A stretch of DNA of 38,616 nucleotides from an uncultured Candidatus Saccharibacteria bacterium (lineage in GTDB: Bacteria > Patescibacteriota > Saccharimonadia > Saccharimonadales > UBA7683). Positions 25,660 to 38,616 of this stretch are shown here, piece after piece (within the stretch, counting starts at the first letter, position 1; the number at the start of each line of letters is the position of its first letter). Where the stretch lies: positions 5,989 through 44,604 of the forward strand of contig CAZXUE010000006.1 in assembly GCA_964643895.1 (NCBI GenBank). The letters are read 5' to 3'. Both the position numbers and the translations under genes were made by a program. The notes under the pieces were generated by a model, which searched no databases, was not told where the DNA came from, and saw nothing but the letters and a program-made list of their open reading frames with translations.

Positions 25660-26259
25660 CTACATATAAAGCTGATGGGAGGCACAGTATTGATACACGG
25701 CATCGGGTAAATCATTTGCGGCTTGTTGAGCAGCAATTACCTCGCGGATCTTTTTTGAGCTAATGTGCGGATGATGATTTTCAATTAAACGAATTGCCGG
25801 TGAGAACCCGAGTGCAGCCAGCTCTTCTAACTTTTCATCAAGCCATGCTTTTGTGTGGTCGTCTCGTAGTGCCACTATAAACCCACCGTATTCATGCTGT
25901 GCAGTGATGGATTGCCACCGCTTCATATGTTCAAAGACATCTGAGCCAACTAAAAACCAAAATTCGTTTTCCTTACCATAATGTGTACGTGCAACAGTTA
26001 GCATGTCTTGCATGGTATGCTGATGCGCCAGCTTATTTGAAAACTCGTAGTCATGGTCGACCTCTGATACACTTTCGGTCGCGCGCTGAATCATGGCCTG
26101 GCGATGGTCCCAGCTGGCAAACGGCTTCTTGCGGTAAGGGTTTTTCTCAGCTACAATTATCACCTTTTCAAGGTCAGATTCCGACACAGCTTTGATCGCA
26201 AACGCAATATGCCCAGTGTGAATGGGGTCAAATGTCCCAGCAAAAATTCCTATCTTCAT
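25660..26259 (-). CDS. nadD: nicotinate-nucleotide adenylyltransferase
   Basis: GIFAGTFDPIHTGHI (HxGH motif) and the C-terminal ISSKKIR (ISSTxIR-like). Its ATG overlaps the upstream gene's stop (ATGA). Confidence 0.85.
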   Translation of the reverse strand: MKIGIFAGTFDPIHTGHIAFAIKAVSESDLEKVIIVAEKNPYRKKPFASWDHRQAMIQRATESVSEVDHDYEFSNKLAHQHTMQDMLTVARTHYGKENEFWFLVGSDVFEHMKRWQSITAQHEYGGFIVALRDDHTKAWLDEKLEELAALGFSPAIRLIENHHPHISSKKIREVIAAQQAANDLPDAVYQYCASHQLYM

Positions 26260-27785
26260 AAGACTATTTTCTCATGCTCAGCTGATTTTGTCTTATCGTC
26301 ATTCTTGCCAACTACTTGTTTTTTGTTTGACCCAAACGGCCACTGGAGAAACGCTGTAGCTTTTTTGGTCACCTTTTTACCCACTTTACGCATTCTTTTA
26401 TATGTAGTTGACGGATTTCGACCATGATCAAATTCGTGTTGACAGCCACGGCACACACTGCAAGGGCCAACATCAGTCCTGCCTGGACGAGTTGGACAAG
26501 CATTAACTCGACAAACCCCCTTAGACCACCGCCAGCTCTCTTTACCGAGCTTCAATAGCTTCGTCATTGGATCGACTTCTACTCCCATTTTTTGTGTTTC
26601 TTCAGCTGAAATGCTCATACCGCAGAATGAGACCGATTCTTCCAAAACACGGTTAGAGTCGAGTACCGCGGAAGCACCAGCATAATCTCCGGCAGCCGTT
26701 AGGTCACTGGCTCTCATAAAACCAACTGCAGCTTTTTCACCAAAACACCCTACTGCATATGAAGGGTCCATCACACAAATTGCTCTTAAAATATTTGCAA
26801 CTTCCTGCTTAAACTGCGTCTGATATTGCTTCTCGGTGATCAAGCCCTCATTTTTTAAGCTATCGAGGCGTTCGGTAAAGTCAGCCAATTGCTCAACGTA
26901 GCACTGTGCGACACGCTCACGCTCCGCAGATTCACGTTGCAAATCTCCGTACTCGCTTTGCTCAGCATGAGCCTGTTCACCGTATCGTATTCTTGCACCA
27001 TGATGCTGATCAAGTCGCTTTAGTAACCCCAGAACACCTTGGCTCATTTCGTGCATAAGCTGCGTGCCAAGCACCGATACATCAGCATGTTGGGCAGAAC
27101 GTAGATTTACTCCTGCTCCTATAAGAAAGTCGGATGAGCGGACTGCATCACTATTGCTGCGGCTCACCTGCTGTGAGATACGCGTAAATGTACCATCACA
27201 ATTATTTCGTAACCGGCTGCTGCGTAACATACCCTTCTTGTTTGATGGCCGGTAGCCTATAAGCTCGGCTGAGTTTTCGCTTATTGCCCCTTCGGCAATA
27301 AAGTCGGAGATGGTTGCAACCTCAAGGGTATCAGGCAACTCTCCTTCGGCAATTTTCAGCTCTACCGCCTGTATGGTGAGCTCCTCGCAGATCTCCATAA
27401 AGCGCCGACGCTGTTCGTGTGCCGGTAATCTATCGCTATATGCATTTAGGAGTACTGAGAGCATAGTTTGATGAATTTCATCAAGACTGCCTGTTGTTTC
27501 TACAACTGAAAGATGGCCAGAAGCGGTAAGCGCCTCAAATAATAACGTGCGGGCGTCATCGAGATAGGTTTTATGAGATTTGTATGAAGTTTCAATACGT
27601 GTATGATTTTCTATCAATTCATGGGCTTGCCGCTCTATCTGCACACGATCAAACAAATCATCCGCCCCAATTAACGGCTCCACTAGTTCAAAATTAGCGG
27701 CAATTTCAGCAAACGCTGCCGCTTCATTTTGCGGGAGCTTAAACTCATCCGTACCCACCCGGTCTGTTGTTAGTACCCTCTCCAC
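26256..27785 (-). CDS. hypothetical cytosolic protein with C-terminal Cys-rich zinc-ribbon-like motif and Lys-rich tail
   Basis: 509-aa ORF with a GTG start 7 nt after GGAG. It has no signal peptide or TM segment. The C-terminus reads CRVNACPTRPGRTDVGPCSVCRGCQHEF followed by KRMRKVGKKVTKK. No family recognised. Confidence 0.75.
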   Translation of the reverse strand: MERVLTTDRVGTDEFKLPQNEAAAFAEIAANFELVEPLIGADDLFDRVQIERQAHELIENHTRIETSYKSHKTYLDDARTLLFEALTASGHLSVVETTGSLDEIHQTMLSVLLNAYSDRLPAHEQRRRFMEICEELTIQAVELKIAEGELPDTLEVATISDFIAEGAISENSAELIGYRPSNKKGMLRSSRLRNNCDGTFTRISQQVSRSNSDAVRSSDFLIGAGVNLRSAQHADVSVLGTQLMHEMSQGVLGLLKRLDQHHGARIRYGEQAHAEQSEYGDLQRESAERERVAQCYVEQLADFTERLDSLKNEGLITEKQYQTQFKQEVANILRAICVMDPSYAVGCFGEKAAVGFMRASDLTAAGDYAGASAVLDSNRVLEESVSFCGMSISAEETQKMGVEVDPMTKLLKLGKESWRWSKGVCRVNACPTRPGRTDVGPCSVCRGCQHEFDHGRNPSTTYKRMRKVGKKVTKKATAFLQWPFGSNKKQVVGKNDDKTKSAEHEKIVL

Positions 27786-27960
27786 TAAAAAACTCCTGCT
27801 GTTGGTGTTATACCGTGCAGGAGTTATAAAAAGACAAACCCTTATTTTTTGACTTTTTGTTTTCTCCTGCTCGGGAGACCTTACAAGGCTTTAAGCGTAT
27901 CGGACTTTAACCGTTGCGGCACAGCGTTGGATTTTCACCAAACTTCCGCTTTAAACCAAG
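27786..27960 (-). promoter_or_regulatory. cobalamin (B12) riboswitch-like leader, compact form
   Basis: Aptamer at 27887-27957 (minus strand): GGUUUAAAGC-GGAAGUUUGGUGAAAAUCCAACGCUGUGCCGCAACGGUUAAAGUCCGAUAC-GCUUAAAGCC. By eye it matches the B12 core (GGAAG, GGUGAAAAUCC, and the B12-box-like GCCGCAACGG). A 10-position P1 helix closes it, and an antiterminator/terminator switch follows. Confidence 0.65.
27787..27825 (-). terminator. intrinsic terminator / SD-sequestering hairpin (expression platform of the leader)
   Basis: Minus-strand RNA AACUCCUGC-(17-nt loop)-GCAGGAGUU followed by UUUUA and then the GTG start. The GGAG SD sits in the 3' arm. Confidence 0.7.
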
Positions 27961-33070: not shown

Positions 33071-33097
33071 TTTGGTTCAACTATCTTGTTTTGGCTC
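33071..33097. repeat. 27-nt direct repeat, copy A (covers the last 6 codons, stop and 6 nt of 3' UTR of the adhesin gene)
   Basis: TTTGGTTCAACTATCTtGTtTTGGCTC matches copy B at 35239-35265 in 25 of 27 positions. Confidence 0.85.
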
Positions 33098-35122
33098 GGA
33101 TATGCAGGTTTCTGGCTTAAGCTTAACTAATCCTAGAATAGACGAGAGTAAAAGCAGTGTAATGAAGCCAGCAAGAAGAGGAGTGTTGGTGCCAGTGCTA
33201 GCCAGCGAAGATGAATTACCAGCAGCATTCGTGTTACTCGTGTTCTGATCTTCTTCAAGTGCTGCCCCAGAGGGATCAACAATCACCCCATTAGGCGCGC
33301 CGTCATCGTCATACTCGCCGCCATCAGTAATCTCATACTGCACCAAGAAAACAACGTCGTCATCGATTAGCGCACCTAGATTTTGCGCGCCATCGATATT
33401 GGTGTATGAACCATTGGGTAGCCATTTGCGTACTTTGTAGGAATCGCTTCCTTCTACGCCATAATAGTACTGCCTAATTCTAGCCGTATCGCCACTACCG
33501 GAACAGCTTATATGAAAGCTCGCCAACCCAAACGGGTAGTTGTAGCCAGCATCAGGGTGTTCACTTGATTCACTGCCCACCTGGAAGCCAGCGATACTCT
33601 CACAGTCTGTCTCAAATACGGCATAATTACCGGTTACAGAATTTATGTAGCTGATTACGTTTGCCTGTTCGGCATCAGCAGTGCCGTCATCATTTGCATC
33701 TCCGCCATTTGGACCCGCCTGCTCAACTGAGTCTAAGCTTCCATCGGCGTCGGTGTCTATAATGGCTGCATTCACTGTAACATTGGTTGCGCTAACGGAT
33801 GCAGCAGGATCTCCGCTAGCATTTTGATACGAGAGCACTACAGTATACACACCGTTGGGTAATGTATTTTGAGAGGCTGATAAAAGCGGTGCGCCCGTGG
33901 CCAAAACGTCCGTTGGATTAATAAAATACTCATATGGACCAGTTGCGGGGCTTCCGATATTTAGATCAATGGTTATCATATCACTGCCAATAAAGGTAAG
34001 CCGCACACTACCGGAAAGCGGATTCTCTCCGAGCATAAAATCGACTGGAATTAAACCATAGGTAGTATTGCTAACAGGAGCATCCATAGTCGGAGCAATA
34101 GTAGTGCCTGGTTCTGCACTAGCGGCTATAACAATAGTAAAGGTATCCGTGACTGTGCCGCCGTTGCCGTCATCGGCAATTACGTCGATTGATAAAGTGC
34201 CCGCATCGCCGTTAGTTGGTGTGCCGCTAAATGTGCGCGTAACGGCATCGAATGATAGCCACGAAGGTAAAGCACCGCCGCCGGCAAGTTGGGCTGAGTA
34301 CGTTAGTGTTGTTCCGAAGTCAACATCGTCAAACGTATTGGCCGCGAATTGAAAATTAAATGCGGCATCTTCGGTGGCACTTTGGTTAGGAATGGGGTTG
34401 GCAGTAATGGGTGCGTCGTTAGCATTGGCAACCACAATATCAAACGTATCAGTAACAGTTCCGCCGCTACCATCGTCAGCGATCACTTCAACTGAGATAG
34501 TACCCACATCCTCATTGCTTGGCGTACCGCTGAACGTACGTGTTACGGGATCAAACGATAGCCACGTTGGCAAAGCTTCACCTCCAGCCAATTGTACCGA
34601 ATACGTCAGCGTATCACCTGGATCTAGATCATTAAACGTATTAATCGCGAACTGGAAGCTAAAAGCGGTGTCTTCAGTGGCGTTTTGGTTGGGAATGGGG
34701 TTGGTTATAGTAGGCTGAATCGAGCCTTCGTGATCCACGCTATAGATCTCTATGTCGAAAAAATCAGACACAGATGAACCACCGTCACTAGCGATCACTT
34801 CAACTGTTATATTACCTACATCGCCGTTACTCGGAGTACCGCTGAAAGTGCGCGTGGCGGGATCGAACGACAACCATGCCGGAAGAGGGGTGCCCCCCGG
34901 CATTTGAGCTGCGTAGGTAAGTGAATCGCTCAGGTCTGGGTCATTAAACGTATTGGCAGCAAATGAGAAGTTAAAGACGGCATTTTCGATTGCATTTTGG
35001 TTGGGAATTGGATTGACTACAGTAGGTTGTGCGGCCCATGCCGGTACGAAATGTCCTAAAATGACCCCTGTCATAATAAGAAGCAACACCCCAAGTAAGA
35101 ACTTCAATTTCAATTGACCCAC
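33077..35122 (-). CDS. cell-surface adhesin with three cadherin-like (dystroglycan-type / putative Ig) repeats and an LAXTG sorting signal
   Basis: Signal peptide ending AWA-AQ. Three repeats of about 101-104 aa (NPIPNQ...F.F.F..NTF.D.D...LTY.AQ..GG..LP.WLSFD...RTFSGTP...D.G). C-terminal LASTG (33191-33205), a hydrophobic stretch and KLK. GTG start. Confidence 0.8.
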   Translation of the reverse strand: MGQLKLKFLLGVLLLIMTGVILGHFVPAWAAQPTVVNPIPNQNAIENAVFNFSFAANTFNDPDLSDSLTYAAQMPGGTPLPAWLSFDPATRTFSGTPSNGDVGNITVEVIASDGGSSVSDFFDIEIYSVDHEGSIQPTITNPIPNQNATEDTAFSFQFAINTFNDLDPGDTLTYSVQLAGGEALPTWLSFDPVTRTFSGTPSNEDVGTISVEVIADDGSGGTVTDTFDIVVANANDAPITANPIPNQSATEDAAFNFQFAANTFDDVDFGTTLTYSAQLAGGGALPSWLSFDAVTRTFSGTPTNGDAGTLSIDVIADDGNGGTVTDTFTIVIAASAEPGTTIAPTMDAPVSNTTYGLIPVDFMLGENPLSGSVRLTFIGSDMITIDLNIGSPATGPYEYFINPTDVLATGAPLLSASQNTLPNGVYTVVLSYQNASGDPAASVSATNVTVNAAIIDTDADGSLDSVEQAGPNGGDANDDGTADAEQANVISYINSVTGNYAVFETDCESIAGFQVGSESSEHPDAGYNYPFGLASFHISCSGSGDTARIRQYYYGVEGSDSYKVRKWLPNGSYTNIDGAQNLGALIDDDVVFLVQYEITDGGEYDDDGAPNGVIVDPSGAALEEDQNTSNTNAAGNSSSLASTGTNTPLLAGFITLLLLSSILGLVKLKPETCISEPKQDS
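34121..35029 (-). repeat. three tandem coding repeats (about 303-312 nt each) inside the adhesin gene
   Basis: The NPIPNQ anchor recurs at aa 37, 141 and 242. The long spurious antisense ORFs at 34068..34352 and 34374..34718 reflect the same periodicity. Confidence 0.8.
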
Positions 35123-35238
35123 TTACGCTCCTCGACCTATTAATGCTTATGGCAAGCATACCACTAAGTACTCCTGGGTGTCGACATTGTTCTTTAAGTC
35201 ATATAGCAAAAGCCCCATAGCGTGAGTGGTTACTAGGC

Positions 35239-35265
35239 TTTGGTTCAACTATCTAGTATTGGCTC
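35239..35265. repeat. 27-nt direct repeat, copy B (upstream of the adhesin gene; reads ...EPILDS-stop on the minus strand)
   Basis: TTTGGTTCAACTATCTaGTaTTGGCTC. Weak similarity continues beyond it (CAGGT..C.GG with a 1-nt offset), which fits a decayed 3' end of a paralogous gene. Confidence 0.8.
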
Positions 35266-35370
35266 CCCCTCCAGGTCACGGACCCCATAACAGGGGTAGA
35301 ATGGTACAAATGGGACACGGCAGGCGTAGTATCAAAAGTGTCTCACATTGGTAGACATAAGGAGGTATTA

Positions 35371-35856
35371 ATGCCAAAAGCACCTAAGAAAACCGAACAA
35401 AAGCCGCACGAATTCACCGAAGAGGAGCTGCGCAGGCTGGTTGGATTTTTTGATGTCCTAATTGAAATGGACATGAAGCAGAAAAAGCTATACAAACGAC
35501 TCGATACCGAGCCAAAGGGTTTTGCCATGCCCGGCGAAGGCCGCGACTGTTCATTATGCGAACGTGGTGTATACGACGGTGATGGCTGGTTTGATAAATG
35601 GGGATTTAAATGCTCTAACTGCCAAGATGCGGTCAACAAGCGGAAGATCGCTGCTTCGCTCTGCCGAGACCACAAGCACGAGAAGGCAATACCCGACACT
35701 ACCCTGGCTATGAAGCTAGACGTTAAAGTGCATACCTTGCGTAAGTATATTCGCGAGGGTAAGATCATTGGTCGTCGCATACCGAATGGGCCAAATATGA
35801 TTTTGCGGAAGGATAATCCGAATTTGGGTGATGTTTTGGCGCAGCTTGCAAAATAA
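35371..35856 (+). CDS. hypothetical DNA-binding protein (CxxC...CxxC zinc ribbon plus C-terminal HTH, excisionase/MerR-like)
   Basis: A strong AAGGAGG lies 5 nt before ATG 35371. Motifs CSLCERG...CSNCQD, then LAMKLDVKVHTLRKYIREGKIIGRRIP. Confidence 0.65.
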   Translation: MPKAPKKTEQKPHEFTEEELRRLVGFFDVLIEMDMKQKKLYKRLDTEPKGFAMPGEGRDCSLCERGVYDGDGWFDKWGFKCSNCQDAVNKRKIAASLCRDHKHEKAIPDTTLAMKLDVKVHTLRKYIREGKIIGRRIPNGPNMILRKDNPNLGDVLAQLAK

Positions 35857-35879
35857 CTGATTTGATATAATTAGATTAT

Positions 35880-36380
35880 ATGGGCGAAATAATTAATGCC
35901 GTGTCAGATTTTGTGAAAGATTATGGAGGTTTGGGCTGGGTAATTGCCGCCGCAGCCCTAGCCTTCACCGTATTTCAGTTTTTATACAAGCGTAGGACTG
36001 GCGGAGTGAAACTTGACGTAACCTTTTCAAATGGCGTCCTGACGTACCCAAACGGTGAGCTGAGCGATCCGATGATATTCCTAAAAATCGCTAATACCGG
36101 TGGCAAAAAAGTTGTACTATGTAGCGTTTCGTTAAATATAAAAAGTAAACCCGCCAGCAGTGTTATTAATGGATATGGCCATCTGCAGCAGATGCCATAC
36201 GTTTTAGAGCCAGGCTACGACTATCAGGTTTGGTATGAACTTCTTCCTATAGCTAAGAATTTAAAGAAGAATGGACAATCGGGCAAGATTGCTATTCATG
36301 GTGAGTATTCCACGCAGGCAAATGGAAGATTTAAAGCCAAAAAGCCTTATAGGCTTGACGTTGATGGATGGACTAAATAG
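35880..36380 (+). CDS. hypothetical membrane-anchored protein
   Basis: 166-aa ORF with an N-terminal TM segment (GLGWVIAAAALAFTVFQFL) and a beta-rich C-terminal domain. Its 3' end overlaps the convergent gene by 8 nt. Confidence 0.55.
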   Translation: MGEIINAVSDFVKDYGGLGWVIAAAALAFTVFQFLYKRRTGGVKLDVTFSNGVLTYPNGELSDPMIFLKIANTGGKKVVLCSVSLNIKSKPASSVINGYGHLQQMPYVLEPGYDYQVWYELLPIAKNLKKNGQSGKIAIHGEYSTQANGRFKAKKPYRLDVDGWTK

Positions 36381-37587
36381 TAGACTTCAGCTTCACCAGA
36401 ATTTTACTCATTATTTCCGAGAAATGTTCATAATCAAAATCAACACTCATTAACGGGAGCCAAATTGTCCCACCGTTTTTGCCAGGGACGTGCATGATAT
36501 TTCGAGCAATAACTTTATAGTTATTTTTTATACGTGCCATTTCAAAGGCCATTGCCCTGTGTGCATCGTACATTTCCTGAGGTACTAGACGCGCTAACTG
36601 TGTCCAATCCATTTGTTTATCGACTATGGCATTTATTTCGATATCAGTGAGTGGCGTCTTTATCTCTTCAACCAAAGGCGTTTGCCGCATATCCCCTTCA
36701 TGCGCGATGAAATTACGGCGCTTTTTTAGAAATGCCATCCAGTGATTAATTTTCTTCACGGAAAGTTTTCTTGCAAGACCTGTACGTTTTTCCTTATTCC
36801 TTTTAATGAAGGTCGCTTTCTCTAGCCCTAGATCGCTATATTTATCACGAGGTATCTTCAATTTAAGAAAGTCGTTCAAAAGCCTCGCCATAGAGTCTAA
36901 GGCGCCAGCAAGCAAAAAATAATAGTTACTAATGTGATAGTTCAGCTCCAAGTTGTAAGTGTCGTCATCGCCGATGCCAGATCGCTCGGCTTTGCGAAGT
37001 CTTTTTACGTAATATTGTAGTAAATCCCTAGCATAATCAATCTGCTTAATCTTGTTTACTATGTATCGAATACGGTCAATCTGTTCACTGGTATACTTTG
37101 AGCTTCTTTGGCACTCCACCATGTAATTATAATAATCTTGACAGAGACCTGGCTGCTCCATGTAGCGTAATAGCGGCTGCATATTCCAGACAGGTTCACG
37201 TAATCTCCACGCGACACCGCTGCCTACTAAGAAATTTTCGATCGAATAAACAAGCTCTTCAATTGTTTGTACAATCTCAACCTTATAGAAGTTTTTGTTT
37301 GTGAATTTATCTGAATATGACCCGTCGAGATCTAATATTACATCAAGATCGTCTGAACCAATCTTTGCTAATAGGTTTTCCTCGCTTAGCGGACTATTAA
37401 ATTGCACCGATACTTTGAGGTTTGATCTTCCAATGTCAGATAGATATGTGTGTAAAATATCAATTTGCCCAAGAAGTTCAGCCAGGTCTGGGTTTGAGGC
37501 ATCTCCCAAAATTAAGACCTTCAAAGTATTAAACTGATGCAATATCGGTCTAAGCTCAGGGTAGATTACTCCATTTACCATCGGCAT
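36373..37587 (-). CDS. hypothetical protein with C-terminal HEPN-like Rx4H motif and N-terminal alpha/beta (Rossmann/TIR-like) module
   Basis: KKRRNFIAHEG (RNFIAH encoded at 36700-36717) is preceded by the helix NYHISNYYFLLAGALDSMARLL. The N-terminus has beta-alpha-beta strands (KVLILGD, KVSVQF, DVILDLDG). ATG 37587 lies 4 nt after the upstream TAG; the ORF track uses TTG 37599. The gene is AT-rich. Confidence 0.6.
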   Translation of the reverse strand: MPMVNGVIYPELRPILHQFNTLKVLILGDASNPDLAELLGQIDILHTYLSDIGRSNLKVSVQFNSPLSEENLLAKIGSDDLDVILDLDGSYSDKFTNKNFYKVEIVQTIEELVYSIENFLVGSGVAWRLREPVWNMQPLLRYMEQPGLCQDYYNYMVECQRSSKYTSEQIDRIRYIVNKIKQIDYARDLLQYYVKRLRKAERSGIGDDDTYNLELNYHISNYYFLLAGALDSMARLLNDFLKLKIPRDKYSDLGLEKATFIKRNKEKRTGLARKLSVKKINHWMAFLKKRRNFIAHEGDMRQTPLVEEIKTPLTDIEINAIVDKQMDWTQLARLVPQEMYDAHRAMAFEMARIKNNYKVIARNIMHVPGKNGGTIWLPLMSVDFDYEHFSEIMSKILVKLKSTI

Positions 37588-37591
37588 TGCG

Positions 37592-38616
37592 CTAAACAAC
37601 TTTCCCGGATGCTTCCTTTAGTTCCCTAAATATCTCAACCATTGCCCAAGTATCCATCTTGCAGTATTCAGTTAGGTCTGCGAGTATCTGATCCTTCTGG
37701 TCGGCTCGTGTTTCATCAAGCACCGCCTCCATCCAAAGTCGCTGGGCTGAGTTGCCGTCTTGAATACCAAGGTCTTTGTAGCTTAGCTCAGGGCACACTA
37801 CAGGCAGTACCTTTTTGATACTCGCGCTTCCCTCGCAGCGCGGATCGTCATACCATTTAGCCTTAAATGGGATCATGAGGTCGACGACACGCTCGTTAAT
37901 GGCCTTAATCTGCTCAGTATATTCCGGATACATCCGCCCCAGCTCTTCGTTTACCGATTTTTCAAAGCGCATATTCCAGGTAATAATTGAGCCGGAATCA
38001 CCCATGTCTGCTACTAGCTGCTTGGCTAAGTCTGGCGCTGGATTAGTGTTATCTTTGTGAAGATACTCTCTATGTTCTACTTCACCACCCGGTTCACGGA
38101 TGATATGCAGAGAATATTGAAACGGTACTTGCTGGTACGGTCGCTGGCCGTTGAAATATGGCACAAGGCCCTGCATCGTTTCATAGTCAAAAAAGTAGAG
38201 TGGATATTGTAGTTCACCCAAAAATCGTTCGATCTCTTGCTTGTTGATTTCGGCACGAGTATCTTCAGGCCAGATTTTAGGCTCGGGCGGAAATATATTT
38301 TCGTAAACCTTCATCCATTCAGATTTTGAACCAAGCTTAGCCAGTTCCGGATTTGGATCAGGCATTTCTGCTTGCGCGGCAGCTTTCTTTGCTGTTTCCA
38401 TGTATTCTGGAGTCTTTAAAGCAACTTCATTTACCTCATCGGTCACATCAGCAAACGTTGTTAGTTCTTTTGGGTTGACTTCACCCACCCGTACAGACTG
38501 ATTATTTACATGAATCACTGATATGTTTCGGACTGTAAAGCCATTTCCCTCAAGCACGGTCTTTTGGAACGCAAGATCGTATAGGTGATCGGGCTTAACG
38601 CGTGTGCTGGATTTAA
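37592..38616 (-). CDS. DUF2779-type protein: DEDD (DnaQ-like) exonuclease module plus the end of a PD-(D/E)xK nuclease module (5' end outside the window)
   Basis: The frame stays open upstream of the track start to the window edge (KSSTRVKPDHLYDLAFQKTVLEG...). YFFDYETM (DxE), PFQYSLH, ITWNMRFEKSV and YCKMDTWAMVEIF resemble Exo I-III motifs and the DUF2779 signature as I recall it. Confidence 0.65.
   Translation of the reverse strand, partial: KSSTRVKPDHLYDLAFQKTVLEGNGFTVRNISVIHVNNQSVRVGEVNPKELTTFADVTDEVNEVALKTPEYMETAKKAAAQAEMPDPNPELAKLGSKSEWMKVYENIFPPEPKIWPEDTRAEINKQEIERFLGELQYPLYFFDYETMQGLVPYFNGQRPYQQVPFQYSLHIIREPGGEVEHREYLHKDNTNPAPDLAKQLVADMGDSGSIITWNMRFEKSVNEELGRMYPEYTEQIKAINERVVDLMIPFKAKWYDDPRCEGSASIKKVLPVVCPELSYKDLGIQDGNSAQRLWMEAVLDETRADQKDQILADLTEYCKMDTWAMVEIFRELKEASGKVV

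What the first reader, a model, noticed from the sequence alone, without database searches (positions are those of the whole stretch)
36373..38616. Candidate undescribed defence cassette: DUF2779-type dual nuclease coupled to an HEPN-like (Rx4H) protein in an AT-rich island
Two minus-strand genes are separated by only 4 nt (TAG 37592-37594, ATG 37585-37587). The upstream product carries the tail of a PD-(D/E)xK module (KSSTRVK...DLAFQ) fused to DEDD exonuclease-like motifs (FDYET, WNMRFE, CKMDTW). The downstream 404-408-aa product has an alpha/beta sensor-like N-terminal module and a C-terminal helical domain with RRNFIAHEG. This is the Rx4H signature of HEPN RNases used as effectors in abortive-infection, toxin-antitoxin and CRISPR-accessory systems. 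Sampled 60-nt lines of the HEPN-like gene gave 25-38% GC, against about 50% for the backbone, which suggests horizontal acquisition. I do not recall this pairing among named antiphage systems.
Basis: partly seen in the sequence, partly recalled or inferred. Interest (0 to 1): 0.72.

Follow-up and report, generated by a model that had tools for sequence, protein, structure and literature searches.

The report
Restriction-operon tail: DUF2779 nuclease plus HEPN
The two genes are the last genes of a restriction-modification defence operon in a Saccharibacteria genome: a predicted two-headed DNA nuclease found at the end of every such operon examined in this phylum, and a rare predicted RNA-cutting (HEPN) protein that is variable cargo rather than its fixed partner.

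Summary
The sequence observation holds. Gene A (37592 to beyond 38616, minus strand) is a DUF2779 protein (Pfam E 5.5e-42). Gene B (36373-37587, minus strand) matches HEPN_Cthe2314 above Pfam's cut-off and has an invariant R291-x4-H296. A 4-nt gap separates them.

The window cuts an operon. In a relative that is 92% identical in DNA (L018), the operon reads HsdR, HsdM/S, a 229-aa gene, NUDIX/SRA, DUF2779, HEPN.

DUF2779 is abundant: more than 120 clusters at 63% identity or above, versus 35 clusters for the HEPN family. It lies at or near the 3' end of a restriction-modification-based operon in all 7 Saccharibacteria contexts that could be read upstream. NUDIX/SRA, reverse transcriptase, DUF4145, SIR2-HerA or Bro-N/Res genes sit between the methyltransferase and DUF2779.

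The HEPN gene follows DUF2779 only in its closest clade (5 of 7 contexts at 62% identity or above, 0 of 9 below). Elsewhere it sits beside HsdR, a type IIS system, a TIR gene, or alone. Only the HEPN gene is AT-shifted (39.6% GC against 45.4% for the window).

This is a new variant of the known link between HEPN proteins and restriction-modification systems. It is not an autonomous two-gene system.

The parts
37592..38616 (-). 3' part (340 codons plus stop) of a DUF2779 gene, cut by the window end. The product is a predicted dual nuclease. The window holds the tail of the Cas4-like PD-(D/E)xK domain and the whole DEDDy-type RNase H-like 3'-5' exonuclease domain.
   Evidence: PF11074 E 5.5e-42, 143 bits. 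It is 91% identical to the full-length 454-aa orthologue in L018. Invariant residues are D99, D110-x2-E113-x-K115, Q131, D257-x-E259, E332 and Y431-x3-D435. The Cas4 PADLOC model matches L018 residues 83-179 at E 7.7e-4. The literature predicts both domains to be active nucleases (PMC3985635, PMC13621843). GC is 45.8%, equal to the backbone.
36373..37587 (-). Gene for a 404-aa protein: a Rossmann-like alpha/beta N-terminal domain (about residues 20-125), a helical linker, and a Cthe_2314-like HEPN domain carrying a beta-hairpin insert. It is a predicted metal-independent RNase effector.
   Evidence: PF18730 36.8 bits against a cut-off of 27.1. AF2 model pLDDT 86.7, pTM 0.83. The model of the C-terminal region has as its highest-probability Foldseek hits HEPN toxins (6m6w_D prob 0.91, 5yep_C 0.89, target-normalised TM 0.5-0.56), but with E 0.1-1.5. 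The family is small: 35 clusters at 90% identity and 218 representatives among 1.84 billion. GC is 39.6%.
36700..36717 (-). Codons for R291-N-F-I-A-H296, the Rx4H catalytic signature of HEPN RNases.
   Evidence: Read from the sequence. R291 and H296 are invariant in alignments A1 and A4.
35880..36380 (+). orf166: 166 aa with an N-terminal transmembrane helix (about residues 17-35) and a beta-rich domain. It converges on the HEPN gene, and the two 3' ends overlap by 8 nt. It is a co-conserved neighbour of the HEPN gene with unknown role.
   Evidence: Homologues lie next to the HEPN gene in the window, L018, L008 and L022 (convergent) and in L023 and L016 (immediately upstream, same strand; the L016 copy is frameshifted), across 43-99% HEPN identity. 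Only 11 clusters exist in 5.8 billion proteins, several on contigs of the same length as contigs carrying HEPN or DUF2779 homologues. There is no Pfam, PADLOC or PHROG match.
35338..35856 (+). 172-aa Zn-ribbon plus HTH protein. It is the conserved right flank of the defence locus and lies upstream of orf166 on the same strand.
   Evidence: Weak MerR/HTH_17-type hits. Homologues of 60-73% identity lie convergent downstream of the operon in L008, L018, L022, L031, L032 and L007, with or without the HEPN gene. DNA similarity to L018, L008 and L009 ends at window 35494 and 35259.
36342..36356 (-). Terminator-like hairpin (AAGCCTATAAGGCTT followed by a T-run) 17 nt after the HEPN stop codon. It is a candidate end of the operon transcript and lies inside the orf166 coding region.
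   Evidence: Consensus scan. The number of such sites in the region is not above chance (4 found, 3.1 expected), so this is only a candidate.

Best explanation
The two genes are the last two genes of a composite, restriction-modification (R-M)-centred defence operon. The operon sits in a variable defence locus of a Candidatus Saccharimonadales (Saccharibacteria) chromosome.

Shown:
- In the nearest relatives the operon is HsdR, HsdM/S (or an HsdR-like gene plus YgjP-like gene), NUDIX/SRA, DUF2779, HEPN. The genes share one strand, with overlaps or gaps of a few nucleotides.
- DUF2779 is the constant element. It lies at or near the 3' end of type I, type III and MmeI-like R-M operons across Saccharibacteria.
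- A variable slot in front of it holds NUDIX/SRA, reverse transcriptase, DUF4145, SIR2-HerA or Bro-N/Res genes.
- A variable slot behind it holds, in one clade, this HEPN gene.

Inferred mechanism:
- The R-M core cuts unmethylated incoming DNA.
- The DUF2779 protein has a Cas4-like 5'-3' nuclease and a DEDDy 3'-5' exonuclease in one chain. It acts on the DNA ends produced, degrading or processing restriction fragments.
- The HEPN protein is a latent RNase that dimerises to form an Rx4H active site. It is a second line of defence that cuts host or phage RNA and stops growth when restriction fails. This is the logic proposed for PrrC/RloC and for 16 other R-M-linked HEPN clades.
- Its Rossmann-like N-domain, and possibly the membrane-anchored orf166 protein, would control activation.
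For: Domains:
- Pfam and alignment evidence for both proteins.

Operon continuation:
- L018 is 92% identical in DNA to window 35494-38616 and extends 5.5 kb upstream. It carries an HsdR C-terminal part (PADLOC REase_I 2.2e-11), an HsdM+S fusion (MTase_I 1.8e-97), a 229-aa gene, NUDIX+SRA (PADLOC PDC-S07 3.7e-36), DUF2779 and HEPN.
- L008 (87% HEPN identity) reads HsdR-like, YgjP-like, NUDIX/SRA, DUF2779, HEPN.
- L001 (64%) reads HsdR, N6_Mtase, DUF2779, HEPN.
- L021/L022 (62%) read HsdR, RVT_1, DUF2779, HEPN.

DUF2779 without this HEPN protein, in the same position:
- L030: type III Res, then DUF2779.
- L031: HsdR-M-S, RT, then DUF2779.
- L032: HsdR-MS-S, DUF4145, then DUF2779.
- L038: PLD/SNF2, MmeI_Mtase, SIR2, HerA, then DUF2779.
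- Junctions range from a 4-nt overlap to a 6-nt gap.

Other points:
- DUF2779 homologues on plasmids of other phyla sit among AAA ATPase, DEAD helicase, DUF87, PLD and NERD genes.
- HEPN relatives without DUF2779 lie directly after HsdR (L007), next to an Alw26I-type RE and MTase (L005), next to a TIR protein and a resolvase (L010), or next to a C5 methylase (L023).
- The general R-M to HEPN back-up model comes from PMC3710099.
- The organism assignment rests on a cluster mate named Candidatus Saccharimonadales and on DUF2779 and HEPN homologues from Saccharibacteria MAGs.
Against: - The R-M genes are not in the window itself. They are inferred from relatives, and L018 and L008 already differ in the genes upstream of NUDIX/SRA.
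- Nothing here shows biochemical activity or any phage phenotype.
- The HEPN fold is supported only weakly by structure search (E above 0.1).
- Four HEPN contexts (L004, L012, L013, L020) show no R-M gene within 8 kb.
- DUF2779 has backbone GC and is very widespread in the phylum. A Mycoplasma homologue is quasi-essential (PMC13621843). It may therefore have a housekeeping role that does not depend on restriction.
- The counts rest on 16 HEPN contexts and 7 readable DUF2779 contexts, not on a genome-wide census.
Confidence: 0.6

Rival explanations
1. DUF2779 and the HEPN protein form an autonomous, previously undescribed two-gene antiphage system in which the nuclease and the RNase work as obligate partners.
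For: - The adjacency, with a 2-7 nt gap, is kept in 5 distinct contexts behind different upstream genes (window/L018, L008, L019, L001, L021/22).
- The identities of the two proteins co-vary: 99/91, 87/89, 76/76, 64/63 and 62/64%.
- No PADLOC model covers the pair.
Against: - DUF2779 has more than 120 clusters at 63% identity or above and over 5,700 hits. The HEPN family has 35 clusters.
- Four of 4 further DUF2779 contexts lack this HEPN protein.
- Eleven of 16 HEPN contexts lack DUF2779. These include L007 and L020 inside the close clade.
- The two genes differ in GC.
- Co-varying identity is expected for any two linked genes that are inherited together.
Confidence: 0.12
2. DUF2779 is a housekeeping DNA repair or nucleotide-salvage nuclease of Saccharibacteria. 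It happens to border a hotspot where defence genes integrate. The HEPN gene is simply cargo in that hotspot and has no functional tie to DUF2779.
For: - DUF2779 has backbone GC and is very widespread in the phylum.
- The flanks are conserved: ParB/MTase on the left and HTH172 on the right. The content between them varies.
- A Mycoplasma DUF2779 gene is quasi-essential (PMC13621843).
Against: - DUF2779 is always co-directional with the preceding defence gene, whatever that gene is. The junction is an overlap or a gap of at most 21 nt.
- In other phyla DUF2779 is plasmid-borne and sits inside ATPase/helicase/nuclease clusters.
Confidence: 0.18
3. The HEPN protein and orf166 form a toxin-immunity (addiction or abortive-infection) pair. 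This pair moves as a unit and has landed behind DUF2779.
For: - Every orf166 homologue whose neighbourhood was read (5 contexts) lies next to this HEPN family.
- Two different gene orders occur, across 43-99% HEPN identity.
- Both families are very small, 11 and 35 clusters.
- Both genes have GC below the backbone, 42.7% and 39.6%.
Against: - Eleven of 16 HEPN contexts have no orf166.
- In the window the two genes converge, so they are not co-transcribed.
- orf166 has a transmembrane anchor, which is unusual for a type II antitoxin.
- The L016 copy is frameshifted while the HEPN gene beside it is intact.
Confidence: 0.1

Closest known systems
R-M-linked HEPN nucleases: PrrC/EcoprrI, RloC, and the 16 R-M-associated HEPN clades of Anantharaman et al. 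2013 (PMC3710099)
   Same: A protein with an Rx4H HEPN domain is encoded in the same operon as a type I R-M system. The expected logic is the same: a latent RNase serves as back-up when restriction fails.
   Different: - The N-terminal domain is a small Rossmann-like fold, not the ABC/NTPase domain of PrrC and RloC (no such Pfam hit).
- The gene sits at the 3' end of the operon behind accessory genes, not between hsd genes.
- The 2013 survey listed the Cthe_2314 family with 'None detected' for gene neighbourhood.
Pfam HEPN_Cthe2314 (PF18730)
   Same: The match is above the gathering score, and the Rx4H motif is conserved.
   Different: - The match is weak (36.8 bits, E 5e-9). Several close relatives fall below the precomputed Pfam call.
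- This branch has its own N-domain and a beta-hairpin insert.
- No member of the family has been characterised.
DUF2779 / PF11074 (UU173 family; MMSYN1_0389 of JCVI-syn3.0)
   Same: The architecture is the same: a Cas4-like PD-(D/E)xK domain plus a DEDD(y/h) RNase H-like exonuclease, with the catalytic residues kept (PMC3985635, PMC13621843).
   Different: - The Saccharibacteria proteins are about 450 aa, against about 650 aa for the UU173 model. The match to that model is only partial: 66 bits against a cut-off of 225.
- None of the 7 papers found that mention DUF2779 reports its constant position behind R-M operons.
HEPN-MNT toxin-antitoxin systems (HepT/MntA, SO_3166/SO_3165)
   Same: These give the best structural resemblance to the C-terminal domain: probability 0.77-0.91, target-normalised TM 0.50-0.56.
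   Different: - No nucleotidyltransferase antitoxin gene is adjacent.
- The protein is three times longer.
- The E-values are not significant.

Membership tests
HEPN superfamily, Cthe_2314-like family (PF18730) | Profile match above the curated cut-off | tested here: met
   36.8 bits against 27.1, E 5.1e-9, residues 178-337. The same family is precomputed for 21 of 35 relatives.
HEPN superfamily, Cthe_2314-like family (PF18730) | Conserved Rx4-6H motif | tested here: met
   R291 and H296 are invariant in 33 close sequences and 20 distant ones.
HEPN superfamily, Cthe_2314-like family (PF18730) | All-alpha, up-and-down helical bundle fold | tested here: inconclusive
   The model is helical around the motif. 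The highest-probability Foldseek hits are HEPN toxins, but E is 0.1-1.5. The whole-protein search gave no hit with E below 1e-3.
HEPN superfamily, Cthe_2314-like family (PF18730) | Metal-independent RNase activity | not testable with these tools
   Needs biochemistry.
DUF2779 (PF11074) | Profile match to the DUF2779 (RNase H-like) domain | tested here: met
   143.4 bits against 23.3, with the full 126-position profile matched.
DUF2779 (PF11074) | DEDD-type acidic residues plus Y/H-x3-4-D | tested here: met
   D257, E259, E332, Y431 and D435 are invariant in 18 sequences. The window has FDYET, WNMRFE and YCKMD.
DUF2779 (PF11074) | N-terminal Cas4/RecB-like PD-(D/E)xK domain | tested here: inconclusive
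   The window holds only the tail of this domain (K..Q motif). The L018 orthologue (91% identical) has D99, D110-x2-E113-x-K115 and a weak PADLOC Cas4 hit, E 7.7e-4. A PDB sequence-profile search found nothing.
PrrC/RloC-type anticodon nuclease | N-terminal ABC/NTPase domain with a P-loop | tested here: not met
   There is no ATPase family hit. The N-domain is a 4-stranded Rossmann-like fold without a Walker A motif.
PrrC/RloC-type anticodon nuclease | Encoded within a type I R-M operon | tested here: inconclusive
   This is true in relatives L018, L008, L001, L021/22 and L007. The window ends before that region.
HEPN-MNT toxin-antitoxin | Adjacent minimal nucleotidyltransferase antitoxin | tested here: not met
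   The neighbours are DUF2779 and orf166. Neither hits an NTP-transferase family.
Any system in PADLOC-DB v2 | Match of either protein to a system model | tested here: not met
   Zero families for both window proteins.
Type I restriction-modification operon | HsdR, HsdM and HsdS genes on the same strand upstream | tested here: inconclusive
   They are present in L018, which is 92% identical in DNA to the window's last 3.1 kb. They cannot be seen in the window itself.

The most novel reading that the evidence does not exclude
DUF2779 is a dedicated 'end-processing' module that Saccharibacteria, and perhaps other small-genome bacteria, attach behind many different R-M-based systems. It would destroy or recycle restricted DNA from both ends. 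That could link defence to nucleotide salvage in organisms that cannot make nucleotides. The HEPN protein together with the membrane-anchored orf166 would be a new, self-contained abortive-infection module that plugs in behind it.
Probability: 0.2. Interest if true: 0.7.

Novelty: new variant of a known kind. Interest (0 to 1): 0.42.

Why it matters
Saccharibacteria and other CPR bacteria rarely carry CRISPR and are thought to rely on restriction-modification, and their defence repertoire is little studied. Three results come out of this locus:

1. **First genomic context for a Cthe_2314-like HEPN branch.** The 2013 HEPN survey recorded no neighbourhood for this family.
2. **A testable regularity for DUF2779.** This uncharacterised dual nuclease lies at or near the end of composite R-M operons in the phylum, behind a swappable slot of second-line effectors.
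3. **A small new protein family.** orf166 is tied to the HEPN gene.

None of this changes the known concept of R-M systems backed up by an RNase. It does offer a tractable entry to the function of DUF2779, because Saccharibacteria can now be manipulated genetically (PMC10187176).

Tried and rejected
- **Foldseek, whole HEPN model, PDB and BFVD:** no hit with E below 1e-3. Only weak Rossmann-like matches appeared (PorX receiver domain, LacI, response regulators). The N-domain therefore stays unassigned.
- **PDB sequence-profile searches** with the HEPN and DUF2779 alignments: nothing.
- **PADLOC and PHROGs** on the HEPN protein, the DUF2779 protein, orf166 and HTH172: no family, except a weak Cas4 hit for DUF2779 and a weak mad1 hit for the L018 HTH172 homologue.
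- **tRNA genes and repeats as island borders:** no tRNA gene in the window and no convincing direct or inverted repeats around 34800-38616.
- **N-domain shared with other effectors:** not supported. Nearly all 218 representatives are 400-460 aa with the same two-part layout.
- **Small downstream proteins in loci without orf166** (L001 210 aa, L004 149 aa, L012 180 aa): tested as possible analogues of orf166. They show no similarity to it or to each other and have no transmembrane helix, and none of the three has a significant Pfam match.
- **L018 229-aa gene as the YgjP-like gene of L008:** rejected, as the two are unrelated.
- **Promoter and terminator scan:** counts are at chance level.
Full report
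**1. The observation**

Two minus-strand ORFs occupy the last 2.2 kb of the window. The upstream one runs off the window end and stops at TAG 37594-37592. The downstream one starts at ATG 37587-37585, leaving a 4-nt gap, and stops at 36375-36373. It encodes 404 aa, or 408 aa from an overlapping TTG at 37599.

The composition claim is overstated:
- The window averages 45.4% GC.
- The downstream gene is 39.6% GC. That is 2.6 SD below equal-sized windows and in the lowest 0.3% of them.
- The upstream gene is 45.8% GC, the same as the backbone.

**2. What the two proteins are**

*The upstream protein.* It matches Pfam DUF2779 over the whole profile (E 5.5e-42, 143 bits). It also matches RNase_H_2 and the NCBIfam UU173 family weakly.

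An alignment with the full-length orthologue of L018 (91% identical) and 16 relatives gives these invariant residues:
- D99, D110-x2-E113-x-K115 and Q131, a PD-(D/E)xK pattern of the Cas4/RecB type.
- D257-x-E259, E332 and Y431-x3-D435, a DEDDy pattern.

The PADLOC Cas4 model matches L018 residues 83-179 weakly. This agrees with two bioinformatic papers that predict both halves to be active nucleases (PMC3985635; PMC13621843). No experimental function is on record.

*The downstream protein.* It matches HEPN_Cthe2314 above the gathering score (36.8 against 27.1 bits). R291-x4-H296 is invariant in 33 relatives of 32-98% identity and in 20 relatives of 17-37% identity. In the distant set only G122 and E317 are equally conserved.

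The AlphaFold2 model is confident (pLDDT 86.7, pTM 0.83). It shows a four-stranded Rossmann-like N-domain (about residues 20-125), then a helical region carrying the motif, with a small beta-sheet insert.

Structure searches gave the following:
- Whole model against PDB and BFVD: nothing significant.
- Model of residues 130-404 alone: the highest-probability hits are HEPN toxins of HEPN/MNT systems (6m6w_D, 5yep_C, 7bxo, 7ae6, 8yuf, 1ylm; probability up to 0.91, target-normalised TM 0.5-0.56). The E-values are 0.1-1.5.

The HEPN call therefore rests on the profile match and the motif. The fold evidence is only compatible with it.

The N-domain has no identifiable relatives. It is almost always attached to this HEPN domain: 218 representatives among 1.84 billion, nearly all 400-460 aa.

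**3. The operon that the window cuts**

L018 is a metagenomic contig 92% identical in DNA to window 35494-38616, and it continues upstream. On one strand, with overlaps or small gaps, it carries:
- an HsdR C-terminal part at the contig end;
- an 809-aa HsdM+HsdS fusion;
- a 229-aa gene;
- a NUDIX+SRA protein (PADLOC candidate PDC-S07, 3.7e-36);
- DUF2779;
- the HEPN gene.

Other relatives read as follows:
- L008 (87% HEPN identity): HsdR-like, YgjP-like, NUDIX/SRA, DUF2779, HEPN.
- L001 (64%): HsdR, N6_Mtase, DUF2779, HEPN.
- L021/L022 (62%): HsdR, reverse transcriptase, DUF2779, HEPN.

The two genes of the finding are therefore the tail of an R-M operon. Which R-M genes precede them in this particular genome is inferred, not seen. 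L018 and L008 already differ upstream of the NUDIX/SRA gene.

**4. Do the two genes belong together?**

I read 16 distinct genomic contexts of the HEPN family.

DUF2779 is the immediate upstream neighbour in 5 of them. All 5 lie in the clade at 62% identity or above, so the score is 5 of 7 in that clade and 0 of 9 below it.

In the remaining 11 contexts the HEPN gene has these settings:
- directly after HsdR (L007);
- after an S24 peptidase (L020);
- beside an Alw26I-type endonuclease and methylase (L005);
- beside a TIR protein and a resolvase (L010);
- after a DUF6414 gene (L012);
- near a C5 methylase (L023);
- with no recognisable defence neighbour (L004, L013).

DUF2779 is far more common. 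It gives over 5,700 hits and more than 120 clusters at 63% identity or above, several named Candidatus Saccharibacteria. The HEPN family has 35 clusters.

Four more DUF2779 contexts, chosen only for contig length, all lack this HEPN protein. All place DUF2779 at or near the end of a defence operon:
- L030: type III-like, with N6_N4 methylase, Bro-N and Res.
- L031: HsdR-M-S, a 173-aa gene and a reverse transcriptase.
- L032: HsdR-MS-S and DUF4145.
- L038: PLD/SNF2, an MmeI-like methylase, SIR2 and HerA.

Counting the three HEPN-bearing operons that can be read upstream (L018/L008, L001, L021/22), DUF2779 follows an R-M-type core in 7 of 7 contexts. A variable slot lies in front of it.

On plasmids of other phyla, homologues of 29-36% identity lie among AAA ATPases, DEAD helicases, DUF87, NERD, PLD and dGTPase genes.

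The locus also has recurrent flanks:
- a divergent ParB_N/N6_N4 methylase gene on the left (L001, L031, L015);
- the 172-aa Zn-ribbon/HTH gene on the right, at window 35338-35856. It also appears in L008, L018, L022, L031, L032 and L007.

This is the picture of a defence hotspot. DUF2779 is a resident element with backbone GC. The HEPN gene is exchangeable cargo with low GC.

**5.

orf166 (35880-36380, plus strand) converges on the HEPN gene, and the two 3' ends overlap by 8 nt. It encodes one N-terminal transmembrane helix and a beta-rich domain.

Its homologues are next to the HEPN gene in five contexts, in two different layouts:
- convergent in the window/L018, L008 and L022;
- immediately upstream on the same strand in L023 and L016, where HEPN identity is only 43-46%. 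The L016 copy is frameshifted.

The family has only 11 clusters. No orf166 homologue was seen away from this HEPN family, but 11 of 16 HEPN contexts lack orf166. The link is real, and its meaning is unknown.

**6. Mechanism**

*Shown:* gene order, domain content, conservation of catalytic residues, and the pattern of co-occurrence.

*Inferred:*
- The R-M core restricts incoming DNA.
- The DUF2779 dual exonuclease works on the resulting DNA ends.
- The HEPN protein is a latent RNase that acts as a back-up when restriction fails. This is the model proposed for PrrC/EcoprrI, RloC and 16 R-M-linked HEPN clades (PMC3710099).
- The Rossmann-like N-domain and orf166 are candidates for control of the RNase.

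*Rivals:*
- an autonomous DUF2779-HEPN pair;
- DUF2779 as a housekeeping nuclease that merely borders a hotspot;
- a HEPN-orf166 toxin-immunity pair.

They are weighed in the structured sections of this report. None is excluded, and each is less consistent with the co-occurrence data.

**7. Comparison with known systems, and novelty**

- Links between HEPN proteins and R-M systems are well known.
- The Cthe_2314 HEPN family and the DUF2779 architecture are both already described.
- The protein is not a PrrC/RloC member, because it has no ATPase domain.
- It is not a HEPN-MNT toxin, because no MNT gene is adjacent.
- It is in no PADLOC system.

Three things appear not to be on record in the searched literature:
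- the constant placement of DUF2779 behind R-M operons in Saccharibacteria;
- a genomic context for this HEPN branch;
- the orf166 association.

I rate the finding a new variant of a known kind. It is of moderate interest, and it rests on a modest number of contexts.

**8. Organism**

A cluster mate at 90% identity or above of the window's 563-aa antiporter is annotated Candidatus Saccharimonadales. The HEPN family was found in only 3 of 185,579 species genomes, and two of the three records are titled Saccharibacteria MAGs.

Noticed in passing
window 35880-36380 (+): orf166 has one transmembrane helix and a beta-rich domain, and its family has only 11 clusters. It is co-conserved with the HEPN gene in two different gene orders across 43-99% HEPN identity. 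Its 3' end overlaps the HEPN 3' end by 8 nt.
   Followed up: partly
window 35338-35856 (+); DNA similarity to relatives ends at 35259-35494: This 172-aa Zn-ribbon/HTH gene is a conserved right flank of the R-M/DUF2779 locus in at least six Saccharibacteria contigs, with or without the HEPN gene. Synteny with the closest relatives ends here. The genes to the left of this point in the window, starting with the He_PIG protein, are not shared.
   Followed up: partly
window 27886-27958 (-): An AdoCbl-II (cobalamin) riboswitch (RF01689, 43.1 bits against a gathering score of 36.5) lies just upstream of a 509-aa ORF (26256-27785, minus strand) that has no Pfam match. The ORF is a candidate uncharacterised B12-related transporter or binding protein.
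   Followed up: no
window 33077-35122 (-): A 681-aa protein with three He_PIG/Big_9 Ig-like repeats, an N-terminal signal-like segment and a C-terminal hydrophobic tail. It is probably a surface protein.
   Followed up: no
L031 10952-11440 (+), Candidatus Saccharibacteria CP064995.1: A 163-aa protein two genes after DUF2779 carries an RNVVAH (Rx4H) motif but matches no Pfam family. It may be an unrelated small HEPN-like protein in the same cargo slot. A ThsB-type TIR gene follows it.
   Followed up: partly
L038 5971-9001; L022 2781-4385; L031 7892-8998; L032 7460-9004: The slot between the methyltransferase or restriction gene and DUF2779 holds a SIR2-HerA pair, a reverse transcriptase (two contexts) or a DUF4145 protein. 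Second-line effectors appear to be swapped in a modular way in front of a constant DUF2779 gene.
   Followed up: partly
L018 4402-5199 (+); L008 3114-3935: A NUDIX hydrolase fused to an SRA-like domain (a modified-base-binding fold) lies directly upstream of DUF2779. It hits the PADLOC candidate PDC-S07 at 3.7e-36 and phrog_15103 at 1e-35. It most likely lies just beyond the window end.
   Followed up: partly
L007 6222-6669 (-): The HTH172 homologue directly downstream of the HEPN gene matches in two frames, so it is frameshifted. This is also the context where HsdR is followed by the HEPN gene with no DUF2779.
   Followed up: no
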